Of a DNA stretch of 11,098 bases, positions 1 to 11,098 are shown in pieces; positions within the stretch are counted from its first letter, which is position 1; every line of letters begins with the position of its first letter. Below the pieces are notes generated by a model that was not told the origin of the DNA, made no database searches, and saw nothing but the letters and a program-made list of their open reading frames with translations. Made by a program: the position numbers and the translations under genes. Source of the DNA: a virus. The stretch is from the UHGV virus genome UHGV-0277743; one strand, written 5' to 3'.

Positions 1-135
1 GTTAACGTCACGCACGTGGACGAATGTTTTTGTGGAGTCACTACACGAGCAGAGAAAGCCATCTACGACCAGAAATTCTCTGGCGCAGCCGCCGACCTTC
101 TCAACGCTAACACCATCGACCGTAATTTCTGACAT
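1..135 (-). CDS. hypothetical protein, 5' portion only (ORF runs off the window start)
   Basis: ATG at 133-135 on minus strand, frame open through position 1 ([16 protein letters not shown]...). Absent from the ORF track because it has no in-window stop. No strong SD and no recognisable motif. Confidence 0.3.
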
Positions 136-269
136 AGTTAAGGCATCCGCTCCTACCACCAGAAAATGATAAACTTTGCTTGTATCTGCTCTATTAATGC
201 CAGACTTTGCTGTCATATTGCTGGATTTTGGCGACATACCAGCCAGTGAAAATATCTTCTTCTGGGCGG

Positions 270-452
270 TTAGCATTTGTTAACCTCCGCGAACTCCTTC
301 ATGAAACGTGCCAGCGGTTGTACGCATGGCGATTGATACCCGTCGCGATAAAACGTCACTCGGTTGTGAGACACGCTTTCGACAGTAACGAGTGCTCCGT
401 GGGCATCTTTGTAGCGTTTTTGGGGTTGTGGTGTTCCTGTCGGCTTAAACAT
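270..452 (-). CDS. small hypothetical protein (60 aa)
   Basis: Internal ATG of track ORF 270..539, preceded by GGAGG with a 6-nt spacer. The longer N-terminal extension would overlap the upstream antirepressor gene by about 95 nt, so I use the ATG at 452. Product MFKPTGTPQPQKRYKDAHG...; no motif recognised. Confidence 0.45.
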   Translation of the reverse strand: MFKPTGTPQPQKRYKDAHGALVTVESVSHNRVTFYRDGYQSPCVQPLARFMKEFAEVNKC

Positions 453-1278
453 GGACCGCCTCCAGACGCTTGGCGAGCCAGCGTTGCGACAGGCGGGTGA
501 GTTCTCCTTTGCGCTGCTCATATTCCATGCCCATATCAATTAACGTGATATTGGTGCTTTCGAGATATGAGAGGTGCTCAAGCTGTTCTGCGTTCATATG
601 GTCGCGAGGTTCGCCAGAATAGCCATTTATCCGCGCCCACTGCTTAGCAGTTAGCCCACCAAGAACGATACGAGAAATCATATTGCTCTCGTTTGTGTAG
701 TGGTGTTGCTGCGTCGTTTTCCCCTGCTCGGCACGGGCCATATTCAGCGCATCGCACATTGGCTTAAAGTTGTTTGCGGCACTAATACGGGCTTTTAGCT
801 GGCGACGATAGCGGGCGGCGATTTCAGGCACGCTACGCTGTAATTCTTCCTCGCACTGGATGAAATAACGACGGATAGCGCGACCCTGATCATTGCGTTC
901 GATCATTGCCAGTTCTTTCGCCATTCCGACACTTAACAGATAGTCTTTGCCGGGTCTGCCAGAGTGCTTAATCTTGCTGTAAGCCGCGCCATTCGGGCTT
1001 TTCCCCAAATTTGGGGAAATTGTTTTATGGACTGAGTAATCGTGCCCAATGGTGAAGTCATATTCAGAGATGCGATCAGTGATCCATGTAGAGAAGTCTT
1101 TTCCCACGCCCAACGCTTTGTGTAACGCTTTTGCGCTAACAATATTGGTTTCACGCCCACCGATATGACCAGGAATAACCGGGACAATTGCGGCAAATTC
1201 ATTACCGTTAATTGTGCCCAGAGAGGCGTTCAGATGAGGGGCGGCCTCAGAAATTAATCTGCTTTTTTCGATGTTCAT
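445..1278 (-). CDS. phage antirepressor-family protein (AntA/KilA-C-like N-terminal half)
   Basis: 277-aa ORF. The N-terminal half carries the pattern I associate with phage antirepressor domains (..NIVSAKALHKALGVGKDFSTWITDRISEYDF..GHDY.. and ..DYLLSVGMAKELAMIERNDQGRAIRRYFIQCEEEL). Same strand and downstream of alpA. Family assignment is from memory of the motif, not from a search. Confidence 0.65.
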   Translation of the reverse strand: MNIEKSRLISEAAPHLNASLGTINGNEFAAIVPVIPGHIGGRETNIVSAKALHKALGVGKDFSTWITDRISEYDFTIGHDYSVHKTISPNLGKSPNGAAYSKIKHSGRPGKDYLLSVGMAKELAMIERNDQGRAIRRYFIQCEEELQRSVPEIAARYRRQLKARISAANNFKPMCDALNMARAEQGKTTQQHHYTNESNMISRIVLGGLTAKQWARINGYSGEPRDHMNAEQLEHLSYLESTNITLIDMGMEYEQRKGELTRLSQRWLAKRLEAVHV

Positions 1279-1290
1279 TTTCAGTCTCCG

Positions 1291-1722
1291 TTAGGCGGCG
1301 TTAAACGCGTCCGGGTAGAGTTTCAGAATGTCGGCAATTTCCTGCTGAGAAAGTCCGTTGTGATCATTTATGTTCGCAAGATGGTTAATATGAGTGATCA
1401 CTTTCAGAACATCACCACGGCAGGAGAAACGGTAGCGAAGGTGTGTTCCGATACCATCAGGATTCTTTTCGTCGATACGCTCCAGAGTGATTCCAAGCTG
1501 GCGTTCTAACTCTGTTGCATAGTTACGACCAGAAGACAGATGGCAGTAGCGAAGAATGTCATTTTCTGTCCATCCCTCTATACCAGTACGCAGCATATAG
1601 ACTCTGGCACGATGCTTTTTCGGTGTGCGCTTTGGTGCTTGAAGGGATTTTGTAAGGGGCGTAACATCAGATACGCGAATATCTGAATTAGCCGCCTGTA
1701 ATGGGCGGTTTTTCTTTTCCAT
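1291..1722 (-). CDS. hypothetical protein (143 aa), basic N-terminus
   Basis: Start ATG 1720-1722 overlaps the alpA stop (TGATG arrangement), suggesting translational coupling. Lys/Arg-rich N-terminal stretch (PKRTPKKHRAR). No domain recognised. Confidence 0.6.
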   Translation of the reverse strand: MEKKNRPLQAANSDIRVSDVTPLTKSLQAPKRTPKKHRARVYMLRTGIEGWTENDILRYCHLSSGRNYATELERQLGITLERIDEKNPDGIGTHLRYRFSCRGDVLKVITHINHLANINDHNGLSQQEIADILKLYPDAFNAA

Positions 1723-1925
1723 CAGGCCACCTTCCCGCGGCGTTCTGCCAGCCAGTTGTGAATCTCAACCGCATCAAACGCAGTTATTTTTTCTCCCAGC
1801 TTTACCGGACGTGGTAGTGAACCGTTTCTTACTTTACGGTCGATGGTGGATACACTAACGCCCAGCAATTCAGCTAGGCGGAAGCGTCTGATATAGCCTT
1901 TTGTAGGAATAGTGTCGGTGTTCAT
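1722..1925 (-). CDS. alpA: AlpA-family prophage regulatory protein / excisionase-like HTH
   Basis: 67-aa product with the AlpA/Vis-type signature: FRLAELLGVSVSTIDRKVRNGSLPRPVKLGEKITAFDAVEIHNWLAERRG (HTH followed by a conserved W). Size and position next to an integrase are typical. Confidence 0.8.
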   Translation of the reverse strand: MNTDTIPTKGYIRRFRLAELLGVSVSTIDRKVRNGSLPRPVKLGEKITAFDAVEIHNWLAERRGKVA

Positions 1926-1994
1926 GCTTCCCGTAACCTCTTAGCGATAGTTGTTGCTTCGTTACGGGAGGAAGTATCTGTACATATATGAACA

Positions 1995-2023
1995 ATAAAA
2001 AGGCACAGTAATGATACTGTGCC
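1995..2023 (-). terminator. intrinsic terminator downstream of the AT-rich orphan gene
   Basis: Minus-strand RNA reads GGCACAGUA-ucau-UACUGUGCC followed by UUUUUAUU: a 9-bp stem, 4-nt loop and U-tract, 17 nt after the stop at 2040. Confidence 0.65.
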
Positions 2024-2039
2024 TGAATAGTTAGCTACT

Positions 2040-3005
2040 CTACCCCTTACCGTTGGCGGCAGCACGTAAGTGTCTCAAAATCACATCTTCATTTGTGATT
2101 GCTAACGGTGGAATTTCGTCTTTATGAGCCACTATGCAATCCCGCCACTTCTCAGGGCTTATTTCTTTCTTTTTGCCACGGCATTCATCAGGATACTTTG
2201 ACAAAAGATATATTGCTGATTTGAAAAGTTTTTCCCTGTTTTCAGCATGTCTCTCGGCATTATGGTTGCTATTTTTTATTTCAGGTATTAGTTCCTGTTC
2301 TACCGCCATTTCGTATCGTTTTTTGCTCTTAGCTGCGTCAAAACTTCCATTAACCTTTGCGTCGTGAAGGTATTCTAAATCAGCCTTTGTTATATAAATG
2401 TTTTTATCTGACAGGCTACTCAGGTGAATCTGGGAACTTTGCATTTTGAATTTATATAGATCACAATCAAATGTTGCTTCAAGTCGCACATATGGCTCTC
2501 CACATTCTTGTGAATGATAATGTCGTGTTGTACTACCGCGTACACGCAACAATCCACATGCAATTGATTTTCTTACAATAAAAGAGTTTTTGCCAATTTG
2601 TTCAAAAACATTTTTATTGTCTCTGTCTTCAACTGTCAGTGGTTTATGTGCATAAAATAGCTCATAAGCACCGCTTTCAGATGCTGGGATATAAACTTCG
2701 TTGCTTGCGCTGGTAATAAGAAAAGGAAATGTAAACCTTACTTCTTCTGGGTACATAAGTAATAAATCAGTTATAAAATCAGCATCTTTTTTGAAGTGGA
2801 TGGTGGCATCAGCTTCAATGAAATCAAGAAAGTCAGCATAGACATAAAAGTCTATATGTAGTCTATCTTTCCAATGCCATATATCATCAATTTCACAATT
2901 TAATAATTTTGATGCTCGCTCTATCGTGCAGTAGTCCAAAGGTGGGATACCTGATTCCTGCCATAAATTTCTATGCACCGCAGTTGTTTCATGAGAGTCG
3001 TTCAT
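2040..3005 (-). CDS. hypothetical protein (321 aa), AT-rich orphan gene in the integrase-alpA slot
   Basis: Complete ORF with AAGGTG 5 nt before the ATG at 3005 and its own terminator downstream. Hand counts on sample stretches give 32-37% GC, against about 57% in a sample of the integrase gene. No P-loop or other catalytic motif recognised. Confidence 0.7.
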   Translation of the reverse strand: MNDSHETTAVHRNLWQESGIPPLDYCTIERASKLLNCEIDDIWHWKDRLHIDFYVYADFLDFIEADATIHFKKDADFITDLLLMYPEEVRFTFPFLITSASNEVYIPASESGAYELFYAHKPLTVEDRDNKNVFEQIGKNSFIVRKSIACGLLRVRGSTTRHYHSQECGEPYVRLEATFDCDLYKFKMQSSQIHLSSLSDKNIYITKADLEYLHDAKVNGSFDAAKSKKRYEMAVEQELIPEIKNSNHNAERHAENREKLFKSAIYLLSKYPDECRGKKKEISPEKWRDCIVAHKDEIPPLAITNEDVILRHLRAAANGKG

Positions 3006-3100
3006 TGCGTCACCTTTTACGCTGCGCCTTATTTTGTGATTGAGCCAGGCGGTAAGGCTTCCCGCTTTTCGCCCCGTCGAGCTAGGCTCAATCTATTCAG

Positions 3101-4360
3101 TTAGTTCGCCCTTCTGAGAGGCGTTACGTTGTAGTCTTTTCCGCTTTCCAGTGCCACCAGCAGATCAGCCCACAGTGCCAGTGCTGCTTTACGCTCATCA
3201 AAATACTGATGGCGGTTATAAATCCCCTCTACGCCCTTAATGCGATGATTGAGGCATCGTTCCGCCACGACAGGATCAACACCCAACGCTGCTAAATGAG
3301 TACGTGCGGTGCGTCGGAAGTCGTGAATCGTGAAATTAGGCACATCCGGCATTTCGGCGCGAACCTTAGCCAGTGCTACGGGTAAAGTGCTTTCCTGAAT
3401 ATGTGGGATCATTCTGTTTTGCATTTTCCTGGCTGGAAGCACCCATGCGCTATTACATGAAAAGGTGTGTAGCTCTCTCAACCATTCAACGGCTGGGGAA
3501 GGTAGAGGTATATCAATAGGGTCTCCGTTTTTGCTGCGTTCTTCCGGCAAATGCCATACCGCACCATCTAAATCAAACTCTTCCCATCGTGCGGCGCATA
3601 ACTCCATCTTACGAACGCATAGTGCCAGCAATAGCTTAAATGTCAGTTCGTTCTGGCGGCTGAATCCTTTTGCGGTGCGCATAGCCTCGAATAGCCTGAT
3701 AAGCTCATCGCGAGTTAGCCAACGGTCGCGGGAAACCTCTTTACCACCAGCATCAGATACTTCAAACGCTGAACAAGGGTTTATCTCCAGAGCGTGGCGT
3801 TTTATCCCGTAGTCAAAGATACGGCGTGTCCAGCGTAATACATCTGTTGCTATCGTTGGTGCTCCTCGGTCAACGATACCTTTCAACATGTCGTCAATGT
3901 GGCGTGGCTTAACGTCCTCTACCTTCATATGCCCAATGCAGGGGTTAATATCCTTATCAATTCTCCGGCGAAGGATATCGGGATGTTTCCATCTCGGAAG
4001 TATCTGGCGCTCGAAGTATTCGGAGGCCAGATCTGAAACACGCATGGCGTTTTTCTCAGCCTCCATTTTTGCCAGTGCTTCAGCTTTTCGTTCCTGTTTC
4101 TCTGCTGCTACGTCATAGCCAAGAGCAACTCTGGCTGACAGCTCTTTGGCTGTCTCTCTGGCCTTTGATAGTGATAGCTCGCTATACGAACCAATTAGCA
4201 TGGCGCGGGACTTCCCTGCGAGTTTATAGCGGAATCTCCATGTGGGGGTTTTGTCGGCTTCACGGTAACGTAGGTATAAACCGTTACCGTCTGCCCGCCC
4301 CTCGAATCGCTCTCCGCTCTTAATCCATGCGCGGATCTGCATGTCTGTTAGTTTTGGCAT
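3101..4360 (-). CDS. int: tyrosine integrase, P4 family
   Basis: N-terminus MPKLTDMQIRAWIKSGERFEGRADGNGLYLRY matches the arm-binding domain pattern of P4-type integrases. C-terminus carries HDFRRT and CLNHRIKGVEGIYNRHQY (the H-x-x-R and catalytic Tyr region). Start trimmed from the track value 4501 to the ATG at 4358-4360, because the conserved N-terminus begins there and the extension would run through a terminator hairpin. Confidence 0.9.
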   Translation of the reverse strand: MPKLTDMQIRAWIKSGERFEGRADGNGLYLRYREADKTPTWRFRYKLAGKSRAMLIGSYSELSLSKARETAKELSARVALGYDVAAEKQERKAEALAKMEAEKNAMRVSDLASEYFERQILPRWKHPDILRRRIDKDINPCIGHMKVEDVKPRHIDDMLKGIVDRGAPTIATDVLRWTRRIFDYGIKRHALEINPCSAFEVSDAGGKEVSRDRWLTRDELIRLFEAMRTAKGFSRQNELTFKLLLALCVRKMELCAARWEEFDLDGAVWHLPEERSKNGDPIDIPLPSPAVEWLRELHTFSCNSAWVLPARKMQNRMIPHIQESTLPVALAKVRAEMPDVPNFTIHDFRRTARTHLAALGVDPVVAERCLNHRIKGVEGIYNRHQYFDERKAALALWADLLVALESGKDYNVTPLRRAN

Positions 4361-4390
4361 TTTGCGAATATCCAAACTTTGAATAGGGGG

Positions 4391-4442
4391 TGTACCCAAA
4401 GCAATGTACCCAAACCTCATTGGGTACACCTTTGTGTACACC
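4391..4442. promoter_or_regulatory. GTAC-core operator-like repeats in the int promoter region
   Basis: Two TGTACCCAAA copies (4391-4400, 4405-4414) followed by TGGGTACACC-TTT-GTGTACACC (4421-4442). The near-palindrome GGTGTACACC gives dyad symmetry. Sits 30-80 bp upstream of the int start codon. Confidence 0.45.
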
Positions 4443-4482
4443 ATAATCATGCGCTTTGTTGCGTCGTTATGATAGCTCATGA

Positions 4483-4513
4483 TAACAAAAAAGCCCGACA
4501 TTTCGCGGGCTTT
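4483..4513 (-). terminator. intrinsic terminator between the two-gene cassette and int
   Basis: Minus-strand RNA reads AAAGCCCG-cgaaaugu-CGGGCUUU followed by UUUGUUAUC. The same hairpin on the plus strand is followed by TATGGTTTTTT, so it may act in both directions, less well on the plus strand. Confidence 0.55.
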
Positions 4514-4632
4514 ATGGTTTTTTGCTGCTTGGTGATTTTTGCTGATAGCTTATTCGATATTCTGAATCTGTTTATTGAGTATGAGCCTCTATGCTGCGTG
4601 GTTACTGGATTCCTTGTAATGCTTCTTATAAT

Positions 4633-4655
4633 TAGGTACACCCATGTGTACACGG
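4633..4655. promoter_or_regulatory. second copy of the palindromic GGTACACC-n3-GTGTACAC module
   Basis: TAGGTACACC-CAT-GTGTACACGG aligns with 4421-4442 (TGGGTACACC-TTT-GTGTACACC). The GTAC cores are 12 bp apart in both copies. The two copies flank the terminator hairpin. Confidence 0.45.
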
Positions 4656-4791
4656 TATTTTGAGGTGCTGTCTTTGGCTGCTCATTTTATGCTCTCGTGC
4701 TTGCTGTTCTGGGCTACGTGCCAAACCGCAGCGAATACCTCCGTCTGCCAGATGAGCAAAACATACCTTATAAAGAAAATCGCTGTTTTTG

Positions 4792-4894
4792 CTGTACCAC
4801 CTGTACCACCATGTCACAAACCCTTGTGTGACGCGGCCTGCAGGTGGTACAGGTGGGTAAAAATGACCTCTCCCCACCTGTACAGACCTGTACC
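4792..4894. repeat. iteron cluster B with nested inverted repeats (candidate ori or attP core region)
   Basis: The 9-mer GGTACAGGT or its complement occurs at 4799-4807 (-), 4847-4855 (+) and 4886-4894 (-), with related copies at 4792-4798 and 4876-4884. A perfect 14-bp inverted repeat CCACCTGTACCACC (4797-4810) / GGTGGTACAGGTGG (4843-4856) encloses an inner 6-bp inverted repeat GTCACA (4813-4818) / TGTGAC (4827-4832) with an 8-bp spacer. Confidence 0.5.
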
Positions 4895-4900
4895 ATTTAT

Positions 4901-5638
4901 TTAATTTTTACCCATAGCAGCACATAATCCCTTTTTTGAAATATTGAAAAATGCGTTCATTCTTCCCGCTGGCTTAACCTTGTAGCCGCTTGCCACCATC
5001 GCCGCAATAAATGCTCCGTTGGGGATATAGTGCGGGTGATCACTGTGCTGGTGGTTTATCTGGTTATATCGCTCCACTTCATGCTTCAACGTGTCAGATG
5101 TGGGGTTATCCTGCGGGAAGCTCTCAATCTGGGCATTACTCATCCCGTTGTCTCTGATCCATCTCAGGCAGCTTTTCGCCGATACGATAAATGACGGGTT
5201 ATCAAGCGGGTTTTCCCAGTCCGCATTCCGGTTGTGGAGCGCCAGTCCGTCAAGGTTAAATTGTGGGTATTCAGCGGTAATTACTGTCACTGCGTGGCGG
5301 ATTTCAGTCTCGTCACAACATGGCTCATCTCCCACACCAGCAGGGTAATAATCTGAACCACCGGGACTGATACAGCGTTTACCACTGAAAGGCCATTGCT
5401 TCGCCATTTCGGGTGTTGAGTGATTACCGTCGCTCCGTTCGCGCTGTGCCTCTGTCCACTGGCTGGCATATTCAGTAAATGAAACCCTTTGCCCCTGACG
5501 CATCCAGTGCGCAATCATAATTAAAGTGCGTTCCAGACTTTGGATGTCGCCAGCATTCCCGCACTGTGTAGCGAAACTTTTTAATTCTTCGCGCTCCGTT
5601 CTGGTCATTCCCTGCGGTATGCAATAGTTATTGCTCAT
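4901..5638 (-). CDS. hypothetical protein (245 aa), second gene of a two-gene cassette
   Basis: ATG at 5636-5638 preceded by AGAGAGGT with a 5-nt spacer. Overlaps the upstream 76-aa gene by 11 nt. His-rich C-terminal patch (INHQHSDHPHYIPNG). No family recognised. Confidence 0.65.
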   Translation of the reverse strand: MSNNYCIPQGMTRTEREELKSFATQCGNAGDIQSLERTLIMIAHWMRQGQRVSFTEYASQWTEAQRERSDGNHSTPEMAKQWPFSGKRCISPGGSDYYPAGVGDEPCCDETEIRHAVTVITAEYPQFNLDGLALHNRNADWENPLDNPSFIVSAKSCLRWIRDNGMSNAQIESFPQDNPTSDTLKHEVERYNQINHQHSDHPHYIPNGAFIAAMVASGYKVKPAGRMNAFFNISKKGLCAAMGKN

Positions 5639-5858
5639 GTTTTACCTCTCTGATTTCTGCTGCCATATCTGTTGGCTCTATACAGCCGTCCCGACTTGCC
5701 ACGCAGGGAATAATGATTTCAACGGTATCGCCGTCAATACACATTTCAACATTCGCCCATGCCGCAATGGGTAGCCAGTCTGAACGCCCCTCAAACCGTA
5801 GCTGCCAGCCAGAGGAAGAAGCTAACTGGCGCACTTTGTAAAATGGTGTGCTCATCAT
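5628..5858 (-). CDS. hypothetical protein (76 aa), first gene of the two-gene cassette
   Basis: Tandem ATG ATG at 5858-5853 with GAGAGGG 8 nt upstream. Stop overlaps the start of the 245-aa gene. No HTH or other motif recognised. Confidence 0.55.
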   Translation of the reverse strand: MMSTPFYKVRQLASSSGWQLRFEGRSDWLPIAAWANVEMCIDGDTVEIIIPCVASRDGCIEPTDMAAEIREVKHEQ

Positions 5859-5902
5859 TGGTTGTTCCCTCTCAGCCAGCCAGAAGAAATGCGTTTGTTA
5901 AT

Positions 5903-6005
5903 GGTATAGGTGGTACAGGTCTGGTATAGGTAAGACATTGACCTGTACCACTATAACACATTGTTTTTAATGCTGAATTAGCAAAGTGGTATAGGTGGTA
6001 CAGGT
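5903..6005. repeat. iteron cluster A immediately downstream of the primase-helicase gene (crr/ori-like)
   Basis: Identical 18-mer GGTATAGGTGGTACAGGT at 5903-5920 and 5988-6005; partial copy GGTATAGGT at 5923-5931; inverted copy ACCTGTACCACTATA at 5941-5955. The basic unit is the 9-mer GGTAYAGGT. Flanked by AT-rich sequence (6006-6034). Confidence 0.6.
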
Positions 6006-6034
6006 AAAAACGATCTTCTTGTAAAAAGACTATA

Positions 6035-8386
6035 TTAAAAAACATCATAACCCCCCATACCGATCAGACGGGCAAACGCAGCCTGTAGAACTCCGACCTC
6101 TGGTAGTTCGTAGAACACGCCATTCCCTCGGTCTGGTCTTCCATGCTTCACCAGCCCCATTTGTGCAAGTGATTTACCCAGTAGTGATCTGGCAGCTGGT
6201 TCTTTAAGCTTTTCCCCACGCTCAAGCGACCACGCTACAAACCGACTAACCATATCCTTTGCAAACAAACGGACTTCGCCATTAAACGGAGGTTCATTGA
6301 TTAGCTCGCCATAAAGAAACAATTCAACGCCAGACAGCCCCAGCAAGATTTCTTCACGTAAGGCATCGGTCTGTGGCGCTCGTTGAGGGTCAAAACCTGA
6401 GAGATCCACCCCTTTAAGATGCCAAAGCAACTTTGCGGCACCGCCATCATTAAGCCAACTGTACAGCCGATCAAAATACTCCCGGCTCTGTGCTTTTTCA
6501 GGAGATGGCTCAAGCACGAGATAGCGACGCTCTCTTATCCCTGCCTGTAATACCTGTGTGCTGTTACTGGCAAATATCAACCGGGCAAAATTCGGCATTG
6601 GTTCAGCATCAATTCCCTTGCGCTCAAGGTTAAACGTCGGTTCGCTAATAATCGCTTTAAGTCTGTCAGCTTCAGACGGCTTGTGGATCGTCACTTCGTC
6701 AGCAAATACCAGTAGCTTGTTAGCAAGTATTGAATTGAAGCGCCCTGAAATATGTCCCGCCCCGTTAATGTGGGCGGCGTACTGCCCCAGTATTTGCAGC
6801 AGCGGTTTAACCGTTGTGCCTTTCCCTGTGCCCGGGACAGATTTCATCACGATTGCCACGGACGGTTTTTCATCAGGCTTTTGGATAATGTGCGCCATCC
6901 ACTGGATAAGATATTGGTATGCCTCTTCATTACCGGCACAGACAACCTGCAACAGGTGATTAAGGTATACCGTGCAATCTCCTTCAATTGGTTCCAGTGC
7001 CAGCCCCTCATACAGATTAAAAACATCGTCAGGGCATTTGTCTGGTACTGGATAAAATCCTACGCCTCCTGGCTTGTAGTTCTTCCCACTCCATGACAGC
7101 CACGCCGATCCCGCCAGCTTTCTGGCGACTCTCGGTTTATGATGAAAATAATGCTGAAATTGTGATAAATCCTCGAAAACGTGCGATACACCGCCGGTTT
7201 GAGAAGGCTTTAGCGACACCACCTTGTGTTTCCCGCCGATGGTGACATGCGTAAACGTCCGGTTGATTTCTTCGAGGACAGCAATTTCATCATCGCTTAA
7301 CACCTCGCCAGAACTGATCTCATTCAGCGCCCCGACTGACTGTTTGTGATTTTTCACCTGCGCCCCTTTCCCCCGTGGCTGGTACATCGAATCTTTAAAT
7401 GCTGCTGTGGCTGCCGCCAGCCCGTGTTGTTGGTGATAGTCGTTCCAGTCGGCTTTATAGTCAGTCGGTGGCAGAGACACCCAGCCAGCTACGGAAATAG
7501 CGGCCCTCTCTGCGGCATCTTTCCCCGTGTTGATCCCTCCACTTTCGGAGTTTCCTTGCTGGTGATCGTTATCTGCGGCAATGATGATTTGTGCCTGTGG
7601 ATATGTTCTGCGCATGACTTCCGCTACTGGCAACAGGTTGCCAGCGTCGATTGCTGCCACTGTCATTGCGTCAGGGCGAATTAAATGGCACGACAGGGCG
7701 GTAGCCACCCCCTCAGCAATTATGATGCTGTGAGGTCGTTTCTGTGCGTTTATGGCGTGATATGCCCCTCGCTTTGCTGAACCTGTCAGGAGTCTTTTTT
7801 CACCATGTGAGGTAATAGTCTGTGCTGCTGTGACTGCGCCGGATTTATCCACCAGCGCCAGCAACAGAGATCCATCGGGCAACACAGGGAATGTAAAATC
7901 ACCTACCCCTTTCGCAACCAGATAATCAGATTTGCCGTTTACAGCCTTTCTGCGCATGTCATCAAACTGACGGGAAAACGTATCCCGTCTTTGTTGTTCG
8001 TCCTTCTCTGCCCTTTTCAGGCGCTCCTGTTCGCGTCGCTGGCGCTCGGTTTCCAGTTGTTCCCGTTTCTGGCTGGTGGCTTCTGGTGTTTCCGTTGTCC
8101 GGTAATCAATACCCAGAACATCAGCGGCAAGCAGCGCCGCCTCTGTTGTGTCGCAGTTATTTACGCGTTTAATTAAATCCAGCCCATCACCAGCGCCGCA
8201 CTGATTACAGATGAAGCTACCGCGCCCGTTGTCATCGAACCGGAATCGATCTTTGCCCCCACATGCAGGGCAGGGAGCATGACGGCGCGGAGAGTCAGGG
8301 ACATTTATGTTCAGGCAGCCCAGCACATGAGGCCAGTTGTTTTCAGACGCACTGATAACCTGACGGATAAGATCAATGTTTCGCAT
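6035..8386 (-). CDS. bifunctional DNA primase-helicase, P4 alpha-like
   Basis: 783 aa from the ATG at 8384-8386 (the track starts one codon earlier at a GTG). N-terminal zinc ribbon CPACGGKD..CNQCGAGDG; Toprim motifs IIIAEGVATALS and IIIAADND; Walker A VPGTGKGT and Walker B LLVFADEV. GGGG SD 7 nt upstream. Resemblance to P4 alpha in length and domain order is from memory. Confidence 0.9.
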   Translation of the reverse strand: MRNIDLIRQVISASENNWPHVLGCLNINVPDSPRRHAPCPACGGKDRFRFDDNGRGSFICNQCGAGDGLDLIKRVNNCDTTEAALLAADVLGIDYRTTETPEATSQKREQLETERQRREQERLKRAEKDEQQRRDTFSRQFDDMRRKAVNGKSDYLVAKGVGDFTFPVLPDGSLLLALVDKSGAVTAAQTITSHGEKRLLTGSAKRGAYHAINAQKRPHSIIIAEGVATALSCHLIRPDAMTVAAIDAGNLLPVAEVMRRTYPQAQIIIAADNDHQQGNSESGGINTGKDAAERAAISVAGWVSLPPTDYKADWNDYHQQHGLAAATAAFKDSMYQPRGKGAQVKNHKQSVGALNEISSGEVLSDDEIAVLEEINRTFTHVTIGGKHKVVSLKPSQTGGVSHVFEDLSQFQHYFHHKPRVARKLAGSAWLSWSGKNYKPGGVGFYPVPDKCPDDVFNLYEGLALEPIEGDCTVYLNHLLQVVCAGNEEAYQYLIQWMAHIIQKPDEKPSVAIVMKSVPGTGKGTTVKPLLQILGQYAAHINGAGHISGRFNSILANKLLVFADEVTIHKPSEADRLKAIISEPTFNLERKGIDAEPMPNFARLIFASNSTQVLQAGIRERRYLVLEPSPEKAQSREYFDRLYSWLNDGGAAKLLWHLKGVDLSGFDPQRAPQTDALREEILLGLSGVELFLYGELINEPPFNGEVRLFAKDMVSRFVAWSLERGEKLKEPAARSLLGKSLAQMGLVKHGRPDRGNGVFYELPEVGVLQAAFARLIGMGGYDVF

Positions 8387-8744
8387 CACCGTACCCCACG
8401 TGGTCTATAGCGTTTGCGATATGGCTAACCAGCATCTGCCACTTGGTTATTCCGTAATCAGTCAGCATGCCATCATTGTTTAGCCACATATCAAATTCAG
8501 CGGTTGTCGCAAGTTTCCACTTATCGCCGTGGACAGTCCTCATTGCTGGGTACATGAATGCGCAAATCAGATCACAAACATCTGACGGCTTCAGAGATGT
8601 AGTAATGGTGCGTCCCTCTGGCGTCTGAATTGCCATTTTCTCTTCACCAGTAGAATGAAGGTTATGAATCCACACAGCACCAGCAATCTTTGCCACCTGC
8701 TCTCCGATTGCGGAGCTAAGCGCCATTTCTGCATTTTCACGCAT
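8373..8744 (-). CDS. hypothetical protein (123 aa), early operon
   Basis: ATG at 8742-8744 overlaps the upstream stop; its own stop overlaps the alpha start by 14 nt. No motif recognised. Confidence 0.6.
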   Translation of the reverse strand: MRENAEMALSSAIGEQVAKIAGAVWIHNLHSTGEEKMAIQTPEGRTITTSLKPSDVCDLICAFMYPAMRTVHGDKWKLATTAEFDMWLNNDGMLTDYGITKWQMLVSHIANAIDHVGYGDAKH

Positions 8745-9078
8745 GAGAACCTCCCGCTACAGTTGCGCCCATGTCATTAACCATGCTTTGCCATATCTCA
8801 CGCCCGACGTCAGTCAATCCGTCCTTAGTGACGCAACGCTCAAGAAGCTCGATCCCCACGGTTTCCCACTGCGGGTAGAACACTTTCATGGCTGCCAGTG
8901 TGTAGCTATCGATCAGGCTGCGAACGCCTTTTACTCCATTGACGATTTCCACACGTACGGCCTCGCCGTCCGCATCAACCATGAAATAGTCCCCGCCGCT
9001 GGTGGAGGTAATGTGGTTATACAGTGCCGACGCATACTTATTTGCCAGCGCATTCAGTCGGAAATTTTTAGTAATCAT
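8737..9078 (-). CDS. hypothetical protein (113 aa), early operon
   Basis: ATG at 9076-9078 preceded by AGGATGGAG, 10 nt after the upstream stop. No motif recognised. Confidence 0.6.
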   Translation of the reverse strand: MITKNFRLNALANKYASALYNHITSTSGGDYFMVDADGEAVRVEIVNGVKGVRSLIDSYTLAAMKVFYPQWETVGIELLERCVTKDGLTDVGREIWQSMVNDMGATVAGGSHA

Positions 9079-9088
9079 GGCTCCATCC

Positions 9089-9691
9089 TCAGTGCGTCAC
9101 TGGTTCCGCTGGCATGCCGTTTTCATTCAGTTCAGCTATAAAGCTGTTGTGAAGTTCAGCAAGCGTTTCACGCCCAAATGGAGTCAGTGCTCCTTGTTCC
9201 ACATCCATCATGGCTCTGTAGAAAATAATGGCGCGTTCTGTGCCAGACTCGATGCCAAAACGTTCTATCATCGCGCCCTCAATGTTGTTTGCCATAGCGA
9301 GGCGCTCTGCTACTGGATACAGCGGCATGGCGACGATGCCGTTGGAATAAACAGCCACTTCGGAAGGATTGCCAGTATCATCAATGATGCTGACAGTGCC
9401 GTTTTCCTCTCTCATTTCCAGCATGAATACTGTTGCGATCAGCCATCTCCACATAATGACGTTATGCTGTGATGTGTAATCGAAATATCCCTGGTTGCCG
9501 CCATCGGCAATAGCGAGATGTATTGACATACCTTCATCTGGTTTATCGTCATAATCCCCGGCATCCAGACGATTTACGGCATCAATATATGAGACGGCCT
9601 CAACGCGTTCTGTCATGCCATCGTTGCTGCGGTACATGATGTTTACGCCGTCAGGCGTTGCTTCTGCATGGAAAGTTAAGAAGTTATTCAT
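9089..9691 (-). CDS. hypothetical protein (about 200 aa), early operon
   Basis: Track ORF 9089..9796 trimmed to the in-frame ATG at 9689-9691 (MNNFLTFHAEATPDG...), 2 nt after the stop of the preceding 73-aa gene. The discarded N-terminal extension is Cys/Trp/His-rich and overlaps that gene. The start is uncertain; 9724 is an alternative. Confidence 0.5.
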   Translation of the reverse strand: MNNFLTFHAEATPDGVNIMYRSNDGMTERVEAVSYIDAVNRLDAGDYDDKPDEGMSIHLAIADGGNQGYFDYTSQHNVIMWRWLIATVFMLEMREENGTVSIIDDTGNPSEVAVYSNGIVAMPLYPVAERLAMANNIEGAMIERFGIESGTERAIIFYRAMMDVEQGALTPFGRETLAELHNSFIAELNENGMPAEPVTH

Positions 9692-9905
9692 GTTTCGCCT
9701 CGCCTGAATGATTCTGTAACTCATATTTGCCCAACAATTCGTCCGCTTCCTGAATAGCTTCTGGTACGCCATTGAGCAGTGACATAACCGCGCCAATCAT
9801 TAACTTGTCTCTGTTGCTGGGGCTGGCCCCTTCAAGCCAGAACCCTAAAACAGTCTGAACCTGTTCGATGCGACATTGCGCTTCAATGAGCTGGATGTTG
9901 GTCAT
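9684..9905 (-). CDS. hypothetical protein (73 aa), early operon
   Basis: ATG at 9903-9905 overlaps the upstream stop (ATGA), with GGAGAG upstream. Confidence 0.5.
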   Translation of the reverse strand: MTNIQLIEAQCRIEQVQTVLGFWLEGASPSNRDKLMIGAVMSLLNGVPEAIQEADELLGKYELQNHSGEAKHE

Positions 9906-10165
9906 TTCGCACTCTCCACATCGATTAAACCGATATCTATCAGGGAGGTAACTTTTTGTAGCCAGCTATTGATTACTGTCGCCTGTTCCCCGCCCACCGA
10001 GGGAACAATCTCATTCATCACATGAACCAGACCTGTGCGCGCTCTGGTAAGCCGTTCAGTCGCGCAATCTGCGGGAGTGAATGTGTCTGGATATGGCTCT
10101 TCACGCCCCAGCAATGATTCAATTTCCAGCTCACACGGATGACGATAAATTAAGTTGATATTCAT
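9902..10165 (-). CDS. hypothetical protein (87 aa), early operon
   Basis: ATG at 10163-10165 preceded by GGGGGTG with a 4-6 nt spacer; ATGA overlap with the upstream stop. Confidence 0.55.
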   Translation of the reverse strand: MNINLIYRHPCELEIESLLGREEPYPDTFTPADCATERLTRARTGLVHVMNEIVPSVGGEQATVINSWLQKVTSLIDIGLIDVESAK

Positions 10166-10356
10166 TTTTCACCCCCAAGAATTACCAGCTCGGCACGGGC
10201 ATCGTTAACCAAAGATGAGCACGCTTTAATCGCATCCACGACATCAGCAGCGTCCATTTCTTCAGCCGAAAGACTGACAGCAACCAGGACAGCCGCTGCT
10301 TGCTCGATTAATTGAAGTGCGGACGTAAGGCGAGGGGTATTAATTGAGTTATTCAT
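10162..10356 (-). CDS. hypothetical protein (64 aa), early operon
   Basis: Track ORF 10162..10413 trimmed to the ATG at 10354-10356 (MNNSINTPRL...), preceded by GGGGG. Acidic, Ala-rich product. Confidence 0.5.
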   Translation of the reverse strand: MNNSINTPRLTSALQLIEQAAAVLVAVSLSAEEMDAADVVDAIKACSSLVNDARAELVILGGEK

Positions 10357-10567
10357 TGGTTGCCCCCGTTTTGCATGGCATTTGTCCACCTTCCAGCAGG
10401 AAATGAACGTCACGAACGGCGAGATCCAATATCGCGAGTAACGCCTTCAGCCTTTCGTCTCGTGAGGGAGAGTTGCTCACCAGAATGTCGTTAATCACTT
10501 CTGTCAGTGTGATGATCTGGCTTGTGCGTTCGAGGGGATCCATATGCACATCGTAGGTTTTAATCAT
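10349..10567 (-). CDS. hypothetical protein (72 aa), early operon
   Basis: ATG at 10565-10567 preceded by GGAGGTGGCAC, a strong SD. This is the 3' part of track ORF 10349..11095, whose upstream portion I do not accept as coding. Confidence 0.55.
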   Translation of the reverse strand: MIKTYDVHMDPLERTSQIITLTEVINDILVSNSPSRDERLKALLAILDLAVRDVHFLLEGGQMPCKTGATNE

Positions 10568-10754
10568 GTGCCACCTCCATGCGGATACGACCAGCAAAAA
10601 AGCAGACGTGATCGCGCACCAGAGAACGGCGAGCATCGCGTTCAGACTCGGCAGCAATATGATGAATTTTGGCGGTAATTGTCGGGCAATCGCGGCGAAC
10701 TGCGGCGATAATCCAGATAAATTGCGGTTTTTGGGTAGGGGTAGTAGCCAGCAT
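10560..10754 (-). CDS. hypothetical protein (64 aa), first gene of the early operon
   Basis: ATG at 10752-10754 preceded by GAGG with a 7-nt spacer. Its stop overlaps the next start (ATGATTAA). Competes with the long alternative-frame ORF 10349..11095, so confidence is modest. Confidence 0.45.
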   Translation of the reverse strand: MLATTPTQKPQFIWIIAAVRRDCPTITAKIHHIAAESERDARRSLVRDHVCFFAGRIRMEVAHD

Positions 10755-10913
10755 GTGGCAGCCTCTGATTCATGGTTTTGAGAACCACCACCGGAAACGC
10801 CAATTTCGCTGGTGGTGAACTGTACAGGGTTGGCGTAACCGGGAATCAGAGAAACCGGCGCGGATTGCTCCGCCCCCATACAGTCCACCATTGAACAGGT
10901 GTAACTGCGCGGC

Positions 10914-10939
10914 ACAAAAAAACACGCATGGCGCGTGTT
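10914..10939 (-). terminator. intrinsic terminator in the leader upstream of the early operon (candidate attenuator)
   Basis: Minus-strand RNA reads AACACGC-gccau-GCGUGUU followed by UUUUUGU, and the stem can extend with GCACAA/UUGUGC. Lies about 160 nt upstream of the first early gene. Confidence 0.45.
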
Positions 10940-11000
10940 GTGCGCTCTGATAATTACCGGGACGCCAATCCCGACACCAGATTTTGCTGGTGCGCTATAA

Positions 11001-11043
11001 CCATAAACCGTGTTGCCGCATAACGGCAAGCTCTTTTTTATGG
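11001..11043. other. stem-loop element in the leader (CCATAAA...TTTATGG with an inner GC hairpin)
   Basis: Outer inverted repeat CCATAAA (11001-11007) / TTTATGG (11037-11043) encloses the hairpin TTGCCG-cataa-CGGCAA. On the plus strand the hairpin is followed by a T-run, so it could also be a plus-strand terminator. Function unknown; the window ends 55 nt further on. Confidence 0.3.
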
Positions 11044-11098
11044 ACTCCGAAAACTCACTATTGGAAGCACCAGATGCACAATACATCGCGCTCATTTC

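What the first reader, a model, noticed from the sequence alone, without database searches (positions are those of the whole stretch)
4792..4894. Second iteron cluster with nested perfect inverted repeats upstream of int: candidate ori or attP core
The same GGTACAGGT family recurs about 1 kb from cluster A, here arranged as a perfect 14-bp inverted repeat (4797-4810 / 4843-4856) around an inner 6-bp inverted repeat with an 8-bp spacer (GTCACA-aacccttg-TGTGAC). Inverted binding sites around a 6-8 bp spacer are the geometry of a tyrosine-recombinase core site. The iterons tie the region to the replication protein. So it could be an origin, the attP crossover region, or both superimposed.
Basis: partly seen in the sequence, partly recalled or inferred. 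Interest (0 to 1): 0.55.

Follow-up and report, generated by a model that had tools for sequence, protein, structure and literature searches.

The report
Second half of a split replication origin
The repeat cluster is real but is not the site where this small E. coli phage-satellite island recombines with the chromosome; it is the second, mirror-image half of the island's replication origin, pushed 1 kb from the first half by two inserted genes, much like the ori/crr pair of satellite phage P4.

Summary
Window 4790-4894 holds five GGTACAGGT-type 9-mers, a perfect 14-bp inverted repeat and an inner 6-bp palindrome. The 9-mer is enriched 8-fold in the window and occurs only here and at 5903-6005.

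The attP reading is refuted. The window is the circular form of an 11.1-kb PICI-type island. Its crossover core is the 21-bp 3' end of yicC at 4550-4570, flanked by a different repeat family (GTGTACCCAA) in P4-like arm geometry.

The origin reading is supported and refined.
- Cluster B is an inverted paralogue of cluster A, which lies 30 bp past the primase-helicase stop.
- Both have the layout 2-3 direct units, one inverted unit, a 38-bp spacer, then two direct units.
- B travels with the helicase type, not with the integrase.
- In at least 15 related elements, from Rahnella to Methylobacter, the two modules are adjacent or up to 6 kb apart.
- P4's annotated ori has the same unit layout, and P4's crr sits at the same distance from attP.

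Most likely, B is a crr-like auxiliary binding array for the primase-helicase. I rate it a new variant of a known kind, of moderate interest.

The parts
4790..4798 (-). Iteron B1 (GGTACAGCA), outermost unit of module B, in 9-bp phase with B2
   Evidence: Sequence. Aligned with the terminal unit of all modules.
4799..4807 (-). Iteron B2 (GGTACAGGT)
4808..4845 (.). 38-bp spacer of module B, 58% GC. It contains the inner palindrome GTCACA (4813-4818) / TGTGAC (4827-4832) and the motif CTGCAGGCCGCG (minus strand), which is shared with B spacers of other Enterobacterales.
   Evidence: The spacer length of 36-39 nt is conserved and the palindrome itself is not.
4846..4854 (+). Iteron B3 (GGTACAGGT), the single inverted unit of module B
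   Evidence: This column block is invariant.
4876..4884 (-). Iteron B4 (TGTACAGGT, one mismatch)
4886..4894 (-). Iteron B5 (GGTACAGGT), innermost unit of module B, facing module A
4766..4789 (-). A-tract flank after module B (AAAACAGCGATTTTCTTTATAAGG on the minus strand), conserved with Pantoea stewartii
4701..4701 (.). Outer boundary of the DNA that travels with this helicase type. In all 22 listed full-coverage E. coli places (of 130 such genomes) the match starts here, with a P22-type ejection-protein module beyond it.
5903..6005 (+). Module A. Iterons at 5903, 5912 and 5923 (+), 5941 (-), then 5988 and 5997 (+). The 38-bp spacer at 5950-5987 is 26% GC. The module starts 30 bp past the primase-helicase stop codon.
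6035..8389 (-). Primase-helicase with Zn ribbon, Toprim_3 and DUF5906 domains. Its predicted fold resembles the NrS-1 helicase and SaPI PriRep. It is the presumed iteron-binding initiator.
5628..5858 (-). 76-aa gene lying between the two origin modules. A homologue sits between the modules in every split origin found.
4901..5638 (-). 245-aa gene between the modules here and in Buttiauxella. In Xenorhabdus it lies beyond module B. No family match.
4550..4570 (.). attP core (TTATTCGATATTCTGAATCTG), identical to the 3' end of yicC
4390..4442 (.). Putative integrase arm-type repeats of the P arm: GTGTACCCAA at 4390-4399 (+), TGTACCCAA at 4405-4413 (+), GTGTACCCAA at 4420-4429 (-), GTGTACACC at 4434-4442
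   Evidence: D9, I6, I10, I18. The geometry matches the annotated P4 arm repeats.
4632..4653 (.). Putative integrase arm-type repeats of the P' arm: GTGTACCTAA at 4632-4641 (-), GTGTACAC at 4646-4653
   Evidence: D3, I3. The P' arm 4571-4715 is conserved with the integrase in islands that have other replicons.
3101..4360 (-). P4-type tyrosine integrase (Arm-DNA-bind_3, Phage_int_M, Phage_integrase)

Best explanation
Cluster B (4790-4894) is the distal module of a bipartite, mirror-symmetric iteron origin. The origin belongs to the primase-helicase replicon of a Gram-negative PICI-type phage satellite.

**Shown**
- Modules A and B are inverted paralogues of one ~125-bp unit: 2-3 direct GGTAYAGGT units, one inverted unit, a 36-39-bp spacer, two direct units 9 bp apart, then an A-tract.
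- The pair is inherited with the DUF5906-type helicase half and not with the integrase or att site.
- In relatives the two modules abut. In this lineage genes were inserted between them.

**Inferred**
- The primase-helicase binds the units through its C-terminal winged-helix-like domain.
- Module A, with its AT-rich spacer, is where the duplex opens.
- Module B, with its GC-rich spacer, acts in cis as an auxiliary binding array. It may recruit or orient a second hexamer, or loop to A. This would parallel P4, where crr cooperates with ori.
For: 1. **Same motif, two places only.** The 9-mer occurs in two clusters, 4799-4894 and 5903-6005, and is 8-fold enriched.
2. **Same internal geometry in opposite orientation.** A runs + + + - [38] + +. 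B read on the minus strand runs + + - [38] + +.
3. **Co-inheritance.**
   - H10407 has a 99% identical primase, a 29% identical integrase and a different site, and both clusters are intact.
   - GDSC2239PM has the same att site and a 90% identical integrase, but an unrelated helicase half. Its iterons are GTAGGGATA in one block, with no GGTAYAGGT.
   - EcCIMP1 has the same backbone genes and a DUF927-type primase. Its iterons are GTTGGTTCA, with no such cluster.
4. **Conservation of the module pair.** Both modules were detected in at least 15 of the 41 related loci scanned.
   - The gap is 0-100 bp in most (Rahnella, Hafnia, Buttiauxella, Methylococcaceae).
   - It is about 300 bp in Xenorhabdus, 1.1 kb in Buttiauxella L007 and here, and 6 kb in Pantoea.
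   - Invariant alignment columns coincide with the iteron units.
5. **Spacer composition.** A is 26% GC and B is 58% GC. GC over 5920-6039 is 0.32-0.33, against 0.50-0.53 over cluster B.
6. **Fold of the helicase half.** The model matches SaPI5 primase-helicase and PriRep1-dsDNA over about 420 columns, and the NrS-1 helicase at E = 1.6e-12. SaPI Reps recognise iterons through a C-terminal winged helix and are thought to load two hexamers (PMC9371898).
7. **P4 record.** The P4 ori has the unit layout 3 direct, 1 inverted, a 35-bp AT-rich spacer, 2 direct. P4 crr lies +194 to +493 bp from the attP core, between attP and the primase gene. Cluster B lies +220 to +324 bp from the core here.
Against: - No binding, melting or replication data exist for this replicon. 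The role of B is inferred from anatomy and co-inheritance.
- B is not universal. Erwinia typographi, Providencia, Proteus and one Methylomicrobium locus show module A with no detectable B within 8 kb. B may therefore be dispensable or regulatory.
- The B spacer is GC-rich in enterobacteria, so B is a poor candidate for strand opening.
- Which module corresponds to P4 ori and which to crr cannot be decided from sequence.
- The winged-helix assignment rests on the secondary-structure order of a medium-confidence model (pLDDT 72 overall, 80-92 in that part).
Confidence: 0.7

Rival explanations
1. attP crossover core: two inverted integrase core-type sites (the 14-bp arms or the 6-bp palindrome) flank the strand-exchange region.
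For: Inverted repeats surround a short spacer, and the cluster lies between int and the rest of the element.
Against: - The junctions of the integrated island fall at 4550-4570, not here.
- The reconstructed empty attB is a single full-length piece in the best-matching E. coli genomes, and is covered at 80% or more in 4192 of 5426.
- In the integrated forms retrieved (L001, L002, L004 and the ten contigs), cluster B is internal and unsplit.
- It persists with a 29% identical integrase at another site.
- No tRNA or tmRNA is involved.
Confidence: 0.02
2. Distal integrase arm-type or accessory-factor sites of the P' arm of attP.
For: The cluster lies only 220-324 bp from the core. The probable arm repeats (GTGTACCCAA) share a GTAC centre with the iterons.
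Against: - DNA conserved together with this integrase in islands with other replicons stops at about 4715.
- Such an island has no GGTAYAGGT at all.
- The same 9-mers recur 1.35 kb from the core next to the primase gene.
- The cluster is kept with an unrelated integrase.
Confidence: 0.03
3. Negative control locus: an extra iteron array that titrates the initiator or pairs with module A ('handcuffing') to limit replication, as with the inc iterons of plasmids P1, F or RK2.
For: - The iterons are the same as at A, but the spacer is not easily melted.
- The distance to A is variable.
- Some relatives lack B.
- Strain A3 carries two copies of B and one of A.
Against: - In most relatives B abuts A as part of one compact dyad, which looks like an origin core rather than a separate control locus.
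- PICIs replicate in a burst after induction, so copy-number restraint is not an obvious need (PMC6092414 states that PICIs have no plasmid state).
Confidence: 0.15
4. A second, independent origin: each module is a complete initiator-loading site, and the element fires from both.
For: - Each module has iterons in both orientations around a spacer. That is the layout described for PICI and SaPI origins (PMC6092414, PMC9371898).
- In low-GC Xenorhabdus both spacers are AT-rich, at 11-16% GC.
Against: In E. coli and other enterobacteria the B spacer is 47-61% GC (58% in this window), against 26-46% for A.
Confidence: 0.12
5. A transcript-level element, such as a terminator or processing hairpin at the end of the replication operon.
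For: The region lies just past the last gene of the operon and folds into a strong nested hairpin.
Against: - There is no T-tract after the stem, and the terminator scan found nothing in 4790-4900.
- There is no Rfam match.
- Conservation lies in the iteron units and their spacing, not in stem pairing.
- Module A has the same hairpin potential.
Confidence: 0.04

Closest known systems
Satellite phage P4 ori and crr (type-1 iterons bound by the alpha primase-helicase)
   Same: - Two separated arrays of one iteron belong to a primase-helicase replicon.
- The P4 ori layout is 3 direct, 1 inverted, a 35-bp AT-rich spacer, 2 direct. Module A has the same layout with a 38-bp spacer.
- The ori and crr modules are in opposite orientation in P4, as A and B are here.
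- The gene order int, arm repeats, core, arm repeats, iteron array, primase is shared. The iteron array starts about 200 bp from the core in both.
- The N-terminal primase domain is 33% identical.
   Different: - The iteron sequence is TGTTCACC in P4 and GGTAYAGGT here.
- The helicase and DNA-binding half shows no sequence similarity to alpha.
- P4 has three modules: one ori plus two direct crr repeats. Here there are two inverted modules and no third site.
- The element lacks sid, delta, psu and cos-type P4 functions.
- From my own knowledge, not tested here: P4 needs crr in cis, and alpha binds both sites.
Origins of Gram-negative PICIs and of SaPIs (PMC6092414, PMC9371898)
   Same: - The origin lies immediately 3' of the pri-rep gene.
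- Two sets of short iterons in opposite orientation flank an AT-rich region. Module A fits this exactly.
- The element has the PICI gene set: int, a small AlpA-like HTH protein, antirepressor, Ash, primase, unidirectional transcription, about 11 kb.
- The predicted helicase fold matches SaPI PriRep.
   Different: - The published description is of one compact origin.
- Here a second inverted copy of the whole module exists. It is separated by 1 kb of genes and has a GC-rich spacer.
- I found no mention of this motif or of a split origin in the papers searched.
EcCIMP1, the E. coli MP1 PICI mobilised by the P22-like phage Kapi1 (PMC11773190)
   Same: - It shares backbone genes, some of them identical proteins: DUF4222 WP_000476150.1, the 73-aa WP_000181940.1, and antirepressor, Ash and HTH homologues.
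- It carries a P22-type ejection-protein module after the replication module, as in the E. coli relatives of this window.
   Different: - EcCIMP1 has a TOPRIM+DUF927 primase.
- Its iterons are GTTGGTTCA in a single block.
- It has no 76-aa or 245-aa genes and no GGTAYAGGT cluster.
Tyrosine-recombinase attP core sites (lambda or P4 type)
   Same: Inverted repeats surround a short spacer, close to an integrase gene.
   Different: The real core is at 4550-4570. Cluster B has no identity with attB, is not split on integration and is not inherited with the integrase.

Membership tests
attP crossover core of a tyrosine integrase | A segment identical in attP and attB, within which the element is split on integration | tested here: not met
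   The identity segment is 4550-4570. 4792-4894 stays intact inside the integrated forms retrieved.
attP crossover core of a tyrosine integrase | Co-inheritance with the cognate integrase and att site | tested here: not met
   The cluster is present with a 29% identical integrase at another site. It is absent with a 90% identical integrase at the same site.
attP arm region (arm-type integrase sites) | Repeats flank the core within the DNA that is conserved together with the integrase | tested here: not met
   Integrase-linked conservation ends at about 4715. A different repeat family (GTGTACCCAA) occupies the arm positions at -160 to -108 and +62 to +83, as in P4.
PICI/SaPI-type iteron origin | Clustered short iterons in both orientations | tested here: met
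   Five units, four in one orientation and one in the other.
PICI/SaPI-type iteron origin | Location immediately 3' of the pri-rep gene | tested here: inconclusive
   Module A meets this at 30 bp past the stop. Module B is 1.1 kb away here, but it lies within 250 bp of the stop in Rahnella, Hafnia and Buttiauxella relatives.
PICI/SaPI-type iteron origin | An AT-rich melting region between the iteron sets | tested here: not met
   The B spacer is 58% GC. The A spacer is 26% GC and meets the criterion.
PICI/SaPI-type iteron origin | Iteron sequence specific to the initiator allele | tested here: met
   Three helicase types on the same PICI backbone have three iteron sequences: GGTAYAGGT, GTAGGGATA and GTTGGTTCA. 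GGTAYAG is kept across DUF5906-type homologues down to about 46% identity.
PICI/SaPI-type iteron origin | Binding by the initiator, and support of autonomous replication | not testable with these tools
   This needs EMSA or footprinting and a plasmid maintenance assay.
P4 ori/crr system | Two or more separated arrays of the same iteron in one replicon | tested here: met
P4 ori/crr system | Module architecture: direct units, one inverted unit, a 35-38-bp spacer, two direct units in 9-10-bp phase | tested here: met
   Direct comparison with the annotated P4 record and with modules A and B.
P4 ori/crr system | An alpha-type initiator: DnaG-like primase, P4-family helicase and C-terminal winged helix | tested here: inconclusive
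   The primase domain is 33% identical. The helicase half has no sequence similarity to alpha, but it belongs to the same broad fold class (NrS-1, D5, SaPI Rep) and has a winged-helix-like C-terminus in the model.
P4 ori/crr system | The second array is required in cis for replication | not testable with these tools
   This needs a deletion analysis of module B.
Gram-negative PICI (the element as a whole) | int, AlpA-like regulator, pri-rep and ori; unidirectional transcription; about 10-15 kb; no virion or lysis genes; a specific att site | tested here: met
   with the att site. Induction by a helper phage is not testable here.

The most novel reading that the evidence does not exclude
The origin of this widespread DUF5906-type satellite replicon is a dyad of two inverted initiator-loading modules that still work when pulled apart. 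The centre of the origin has therefore become an insertion slot for genes: 0.3 kb in Xenorhabdus, 1 kb here, 6 kb in Pantoea. P4's puzzling ori/crr separation would be the extreme form of the same split. The conserved 76-aa protein encoded inside every split origin could be a regulator of that long-range cooperation.
Probability: 0.3. Interest if true: 0.55.

Novelty: new variant of a known kind. Interest (0 to 1): 0.4.

Why it matters
- **Annotation.** It separates two things that lie within 250 bp of each other and share a GTAC-centred repeat: the integration site and part of the replication origin. That prevents a wrong attP annotation.
- **Biology of PICI replicons.**
  - It suggests that one large class of PICI-type satellite replicons uses a two-module origin whose halves tolerate kilobases of inserted cargo.
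  - This gives a natural series (0 bp to 6 kb) for asking how a self-loading primase-helicase uses distant binding arrays. That question has been open for P4 ori/crr since the 1980s.
- **Module exchange.** It delimits a replicon cassette, running from mid-primase gene to about 90 bp past module B, that is exchanged among otherwise near-identical E. coli islands.

Tried and rejected
- **Phage database.** A megablast of 4300-5000 against the phage collection gave no match.
None was found in four loci. The target is the 3' end of the protein gene yicC.
- **Promoter and terminator scan of 4300-6100.** Nothing fell inside cluster B. The only strong terminator is the bidirectional one at 4490-4513, in the P arm.
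- **Rfam at permissive threshold.** Only chance miRNA hits appeared, far below their gathering scores and over module A.
- **Co-variation of iteron and protein within the DUF5906 family.** This was not informative, because GGTAYAG is conserved across the family. Comparison with other helicase types on the same backbone was used instead.
- **Independent copies of the short 11.1-kb form**, with P' arm, cluster B and the 245-aa gene contiguous.
  - Zero hits in viral contigs and zero in metagenome contigs.
  - None among ten long contigs encoding the identical 245-aa protein.
  - No one place in E. coli complete genomes covers 80% or more of 4440-4960.
- **Literature.**
  - Searches for the motif strings returned only unrelated papers.
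  - The classic P4 ori/crr papers are not in the searchable library, so the annotated P4 GenBank record was used as the comparison.
- **Sequence search of the C-terminal 221 aa against PDB.** It gave only a marginal hit. The profile search and the fold search were needed.

Full report
**1.

- The perfect 14-bp inverted repeat (4797-4810 / 4843-4856) was recovered by the repeat finder (I2).
- The inner palindrome GTCACA-N8-TGTGAC lies at 4813-4818 / 4827-4832.
- GGTACAGGT with at most one mismatch occurs 11 times in the window, against 1.4 expected. None of 200 shuffles reached that number.
- Ten of the eleven copies fall into two clusters. Cluster B is 4799-4894, extended by a fifth, weaker unit at 4790-4798. 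Cluster A is 5903-6005.

**2. What the window is**

- All real genes are on the minus strand:
  - a P4-type tyrosine integrase (3101-4360);
  - a 67-aa AlpA/excisionase-like HTH protein;
  - an AntA/B antirepressor;
  - an Ash-family protein;
  - a 784-aa primase-helicase with Zn ribbon, Toprim_3 and DUF5906 domains (6035-8389);
  - two small genes after it, of 76 aa and 245 aa.
- The window matches islands in E. coli chromosomes.
- Against E. coli MS14385 it aligns as a circular permutation. Window 4701-11098 equals locus 8001-14401, and window 1-4570 equals locus 14402-18970. The window is therefore the circular form of the island, cut at an arbitrary point.
- The gene set, size and one-directional layout are those of Gram-negative phage-inducible chromosomal islands (PMC6092414).
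- The backbone is shared with EcCIMP1, a PICI mobilised by the P22-like phage Kapi1 (PMC11773190).

**3. Where attP really is**

- The right junction in MS14385 ends in TTATTCGATATTCTGAATCTG, which is the last 21 nt of yicC including its stop codon.
- The same 21-mer, with one substitution, starts the left junction next to dinD in strain A3. It is followed without interruption by window 4571-4934.
- I joined the dinD flank, the core and yicC in silico. One place covers 80% or more of this site in 4192 of 5426 complete E. coli genomes, and the listed top hits are single 100% pieces at 99.1% identity.
- The crossover core is thus window 4550-4570, which is 220 bp to the left of the finding.
- The core is flanked by a different repeat family, GTGTACCCAA / GTGTACAC. 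Copies lie at 4390-4442 (-160 to -108) and 4632-4653 (+62 to +83).
- This is nearly the geometry of the arm repeats annotated in phage P4: -163 to -113 and +54 to +77 from its core.
- DNA conserved together with this integrase in islands that carry other replicons ends at about 4715.
- Cluster B is therefore outside attP, by junction mapping and by conservation.

**4. Cluster B travels with the helicase, not the integrase**

Three natural swaps on the same PICI backbone show this.

| Island | Integrase / site | Primase-helicase | Iterons |
|---|---|---|---|
| ETEC H10407 | 29% identical, different site | 99% identical | Both clusters intact, same spacing |
| GDSC2239PM | 90% identical, same yicC site, same P' arm | N-terminal 363 aa 69% identical, rest unrelated | GTAGGGATA, one 250-bp block after the gene; no GGTAYAGGT |
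| EcCIMP1 | Not compared (a 404-aa integrase next to tRNA-Thr) | TOPRIM+DUF927 type | GTTGGTTCA, one block; no such cluster |

In all 22 listed full-coverage E. coli places, out of 130 such genomes, the homology with the window starts at 4701. The exchanged replicon cassette therefore runs from the middle of the primase gene to about 90 bp beyond cluster B.

**5. A and B are two inverted copies of one module**

- On the plus strand, A reads + + + - [38 nt] + +. The units start at 5903, 5912, 5923, 5941(-), 5988 and 5997.
- Read on the minus strand, B is + + - [38 nt] + +. The units are at 4886-4894, 4876-4884, 4846-4854(inverted), 4799-4807 and 4790-4798.
- The distance from the inverted unit to the next direct unit is 47 nt in both, and both end in an A-tract.
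- The 3-unit end of A and the 2-unit end of B face each other across 1008 bp that hold the 76-aa and 245-aa genes.

**6. The pair is old and usually contiguous**

- I searched one genome per species with a profile of the helicase half and obtained 45 loci.
- GGTAYAG is the dominant repeat just past the helicase stop in most of them, from Pantoea (83% identity) to Methylococcaceae and Alishewanella (46-53%).
- A strict module pattern finds A-type and B-type modules in opposite orientation in at least 15 of the 41 loci scanned. The pattern is an inverted unit, 33-42 nt, then two phased units.
- The gap between them varies:
  - 0-100 bp in Rahnella, Hafnia, Buttiauxella, Methylobacter, Methylomonas and others;
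  - about 300 bp in Xenorhabdus;
  - 1.1 kb in Buttiauxella L007, as here;
  - 6 kb in Pantoea stewartii.
- In an alignment of 18 modules, the invariant columns are the iteron units and the spacers vary.
Enterobacterial B spacers do share a motif, AGCTnCARGCCRCG.
- A homologue of the 76-aa gene lies between the modules in every split origin.
- The 245-aa gene lies between them here and in Buttiauxella, but beyond B in Xenorhabdus.
- The simplest history is a compact dyad origin into whose centre genes were inserted.

**7. How it probably works**

Established for related systems:
- SaPI and PICI initiators are self-loading helicases. A C-terminal winged helix reads the iterons.
- The iterons lie in both orientations around an AT-rich stretch, and two hexamers are thought to load there (PMC9371898, PMC6092414).

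Shown here:
- An AlphaFold model of the helicase half has mean pLDDT 72, and 80-92 in the C-terminal 100 residues.
- It matches the NrS-1 helicase (E = 1.6e-12), and SaPI5 primase-helicase and PriRep1-dsDNA over about 420 columns.
- Its C-terminus has the helix-strand-helix-helix-hairpin order of a winged helix.
- The A spacer is 26% GC and the B spacer 58% GC.

Inferred:
- The primase-helicase binds both modules.
- A opens, and B acts as an auxiliary array in cis.

**8. The P4 comparison**

- The annotated P4 record gives the closest precedent.
- P4 ori has three direct type-1 repeats, one inverted, a 35-bp spacer of 17% GC, then two direct repeats. This is the same plan as module A.
- P4 crr, the 'cis required region for replication', consists of two related modules. 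They lie between the primase gene and attP, starting 194 bp from the core. Cluster B starts 220 bp from the core here.
- The differences from P4:
  - the iteron sequence differs;
  - the helicase half is unrelated in sequence;
  - there are two inverted modules rather than three sites.
- That alpha binds both P4 sites, and that crr is needed in cis, is from my own knowledge of the older literature. It was not read here.

**9. Caveats**

- B is missing within 8 kb in a few relatives that keep A: Erwinia typographi, Providencia, Proteus and a Methylomicrobium. It may be dispensable or regulatory, and a negative (handcuffing) role is not excluded.
- In the full-length E. coli places listed and in the ten long contigs examined, a P22-type ejection-protein module (gp7, gp20, gp16 homologues) follows cluster B.
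- The short form in this window, where B adjoins the P' arm, was not found anywhere else.
- Strain A3 carries the 234-bp segment 4701-4934 twice, once next to attL and once internally.
- The window is therefore either a deletion between those repeats or an assembly collapse across them. Either way cluster B itself is genuine. Its closeness to attP in this window may not be typical.

**10. Verdict**

- The finding is real.
- The attP reading is wrong, and the origin reading is right in a refined form.
- It is a new variant of a known kind: an iteron origin of a PICI/P4-type satellite, here bipartite and split.
- Interest is moderate.

Noticed in passing
window 4550-4570, with 4390-4442 and 4632-4653: The attP core is the 21-bp 3' end of yicC. 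It is flanked by GTGTACCCAA / GTGTACAC repeats in almost the same geometry as the arm repeats annotated in P4. The attL copy in strain A3 has A instead of G at core position 7, which places strand exchange to the right of that base.
   Followed up: yes
window 4484-4523: A strong bidirectional intrinsic terminator (AAAGCCCG-N8-CGGGCTTT with T-runs on both sides) lies in the P arm just outside the core. After integration it sits directly downstream of the reconstituted yicC, so it probably replaces the yicC terminator.
   Followed up: partly
window 4701-4934; L002 16151-16385 and 24067-24300: In E. coli A3 this 234-bp segment, including cluster B, is present twice. The copies flank an ~8-kb module with PerC, Abi and P22-type ejection proteins. 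The window looks like the product of recombination, or of assembly collapse, between the copies. The short form was found nowhere else.
   Followed up: partly
L001 2888-7598; L054-L063 5340-8738: Related E. coli islands carry homologues of the P22 ejection proteins after cluster B: DUF2824 (gp14-like), gp7, gp20 (Inj_translocase) and gp16. This points to a P22-like helper phage and to the satellite supplying its own injection proteins. The window lacks this module.
   Followed up: no
window 6035-8389, compared with L005 3376-5817 and L064 19422-22178: The primase gene is mosaic. The N-terminal ~360 aa are 69% identical between islands whose helicase and DNA-binding halves are unrelated (DUF5906, P4-family, DUF927). 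Each type has its own iteron (GGTAYAGGT, GTAGGGATA, GTTGGTTCA). The swap point is inside the gene.
   Followed up: partly
window 5628-5858: The 76-aa protein (MMSTPFY...IEPTD) has no family match. Homologues are encoded between the two origin modules in Pantoea, Buttiauxella and Xenorhabdus, while compact origins lack it. It is a candidate replication regulator.
   Followed up: partly
window 4901-5638; L005 2772-3053: The first ~95 residues of the 245-aa protein are 56% identical to a 100-aa protein encoded just after the origin of the P4-family-type island. This may be a common post-origin PICI gene with a variable C-terminal extension.
   Followed up: no
window 5872-6048 (-), 4644-4904 (+), 4632-4877 (-): These ORFs of 58, 86 and 81 aa overlap the iteron modules. 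They are not annotated in RefSeq relatives and are most likely spurious.
   Followed up: partly
L051 7001-7129 (Salmonella IncFIB plasmid); L052 7001-7500 (Klebsiella variicola plasmid): Diverged copies of cluster B (75-78% identity) occur on large conjugative plasmids. One sits next to an IS3 element with no helicase gene nearby, and one sits within a decayed PICI-like fragment with SSB, PerC and Icd. They look like relics.
   Followed up: partly
L010, -4640 to -4440 relative to the helicase stop: In Xenorhabdus ehlersii the A module next to this helicase gene is degenerate. A complete A-type module lies 4.6 kb upstream of the helicase stop, which suggests tandem or rearranged elements.
   Followed up: no
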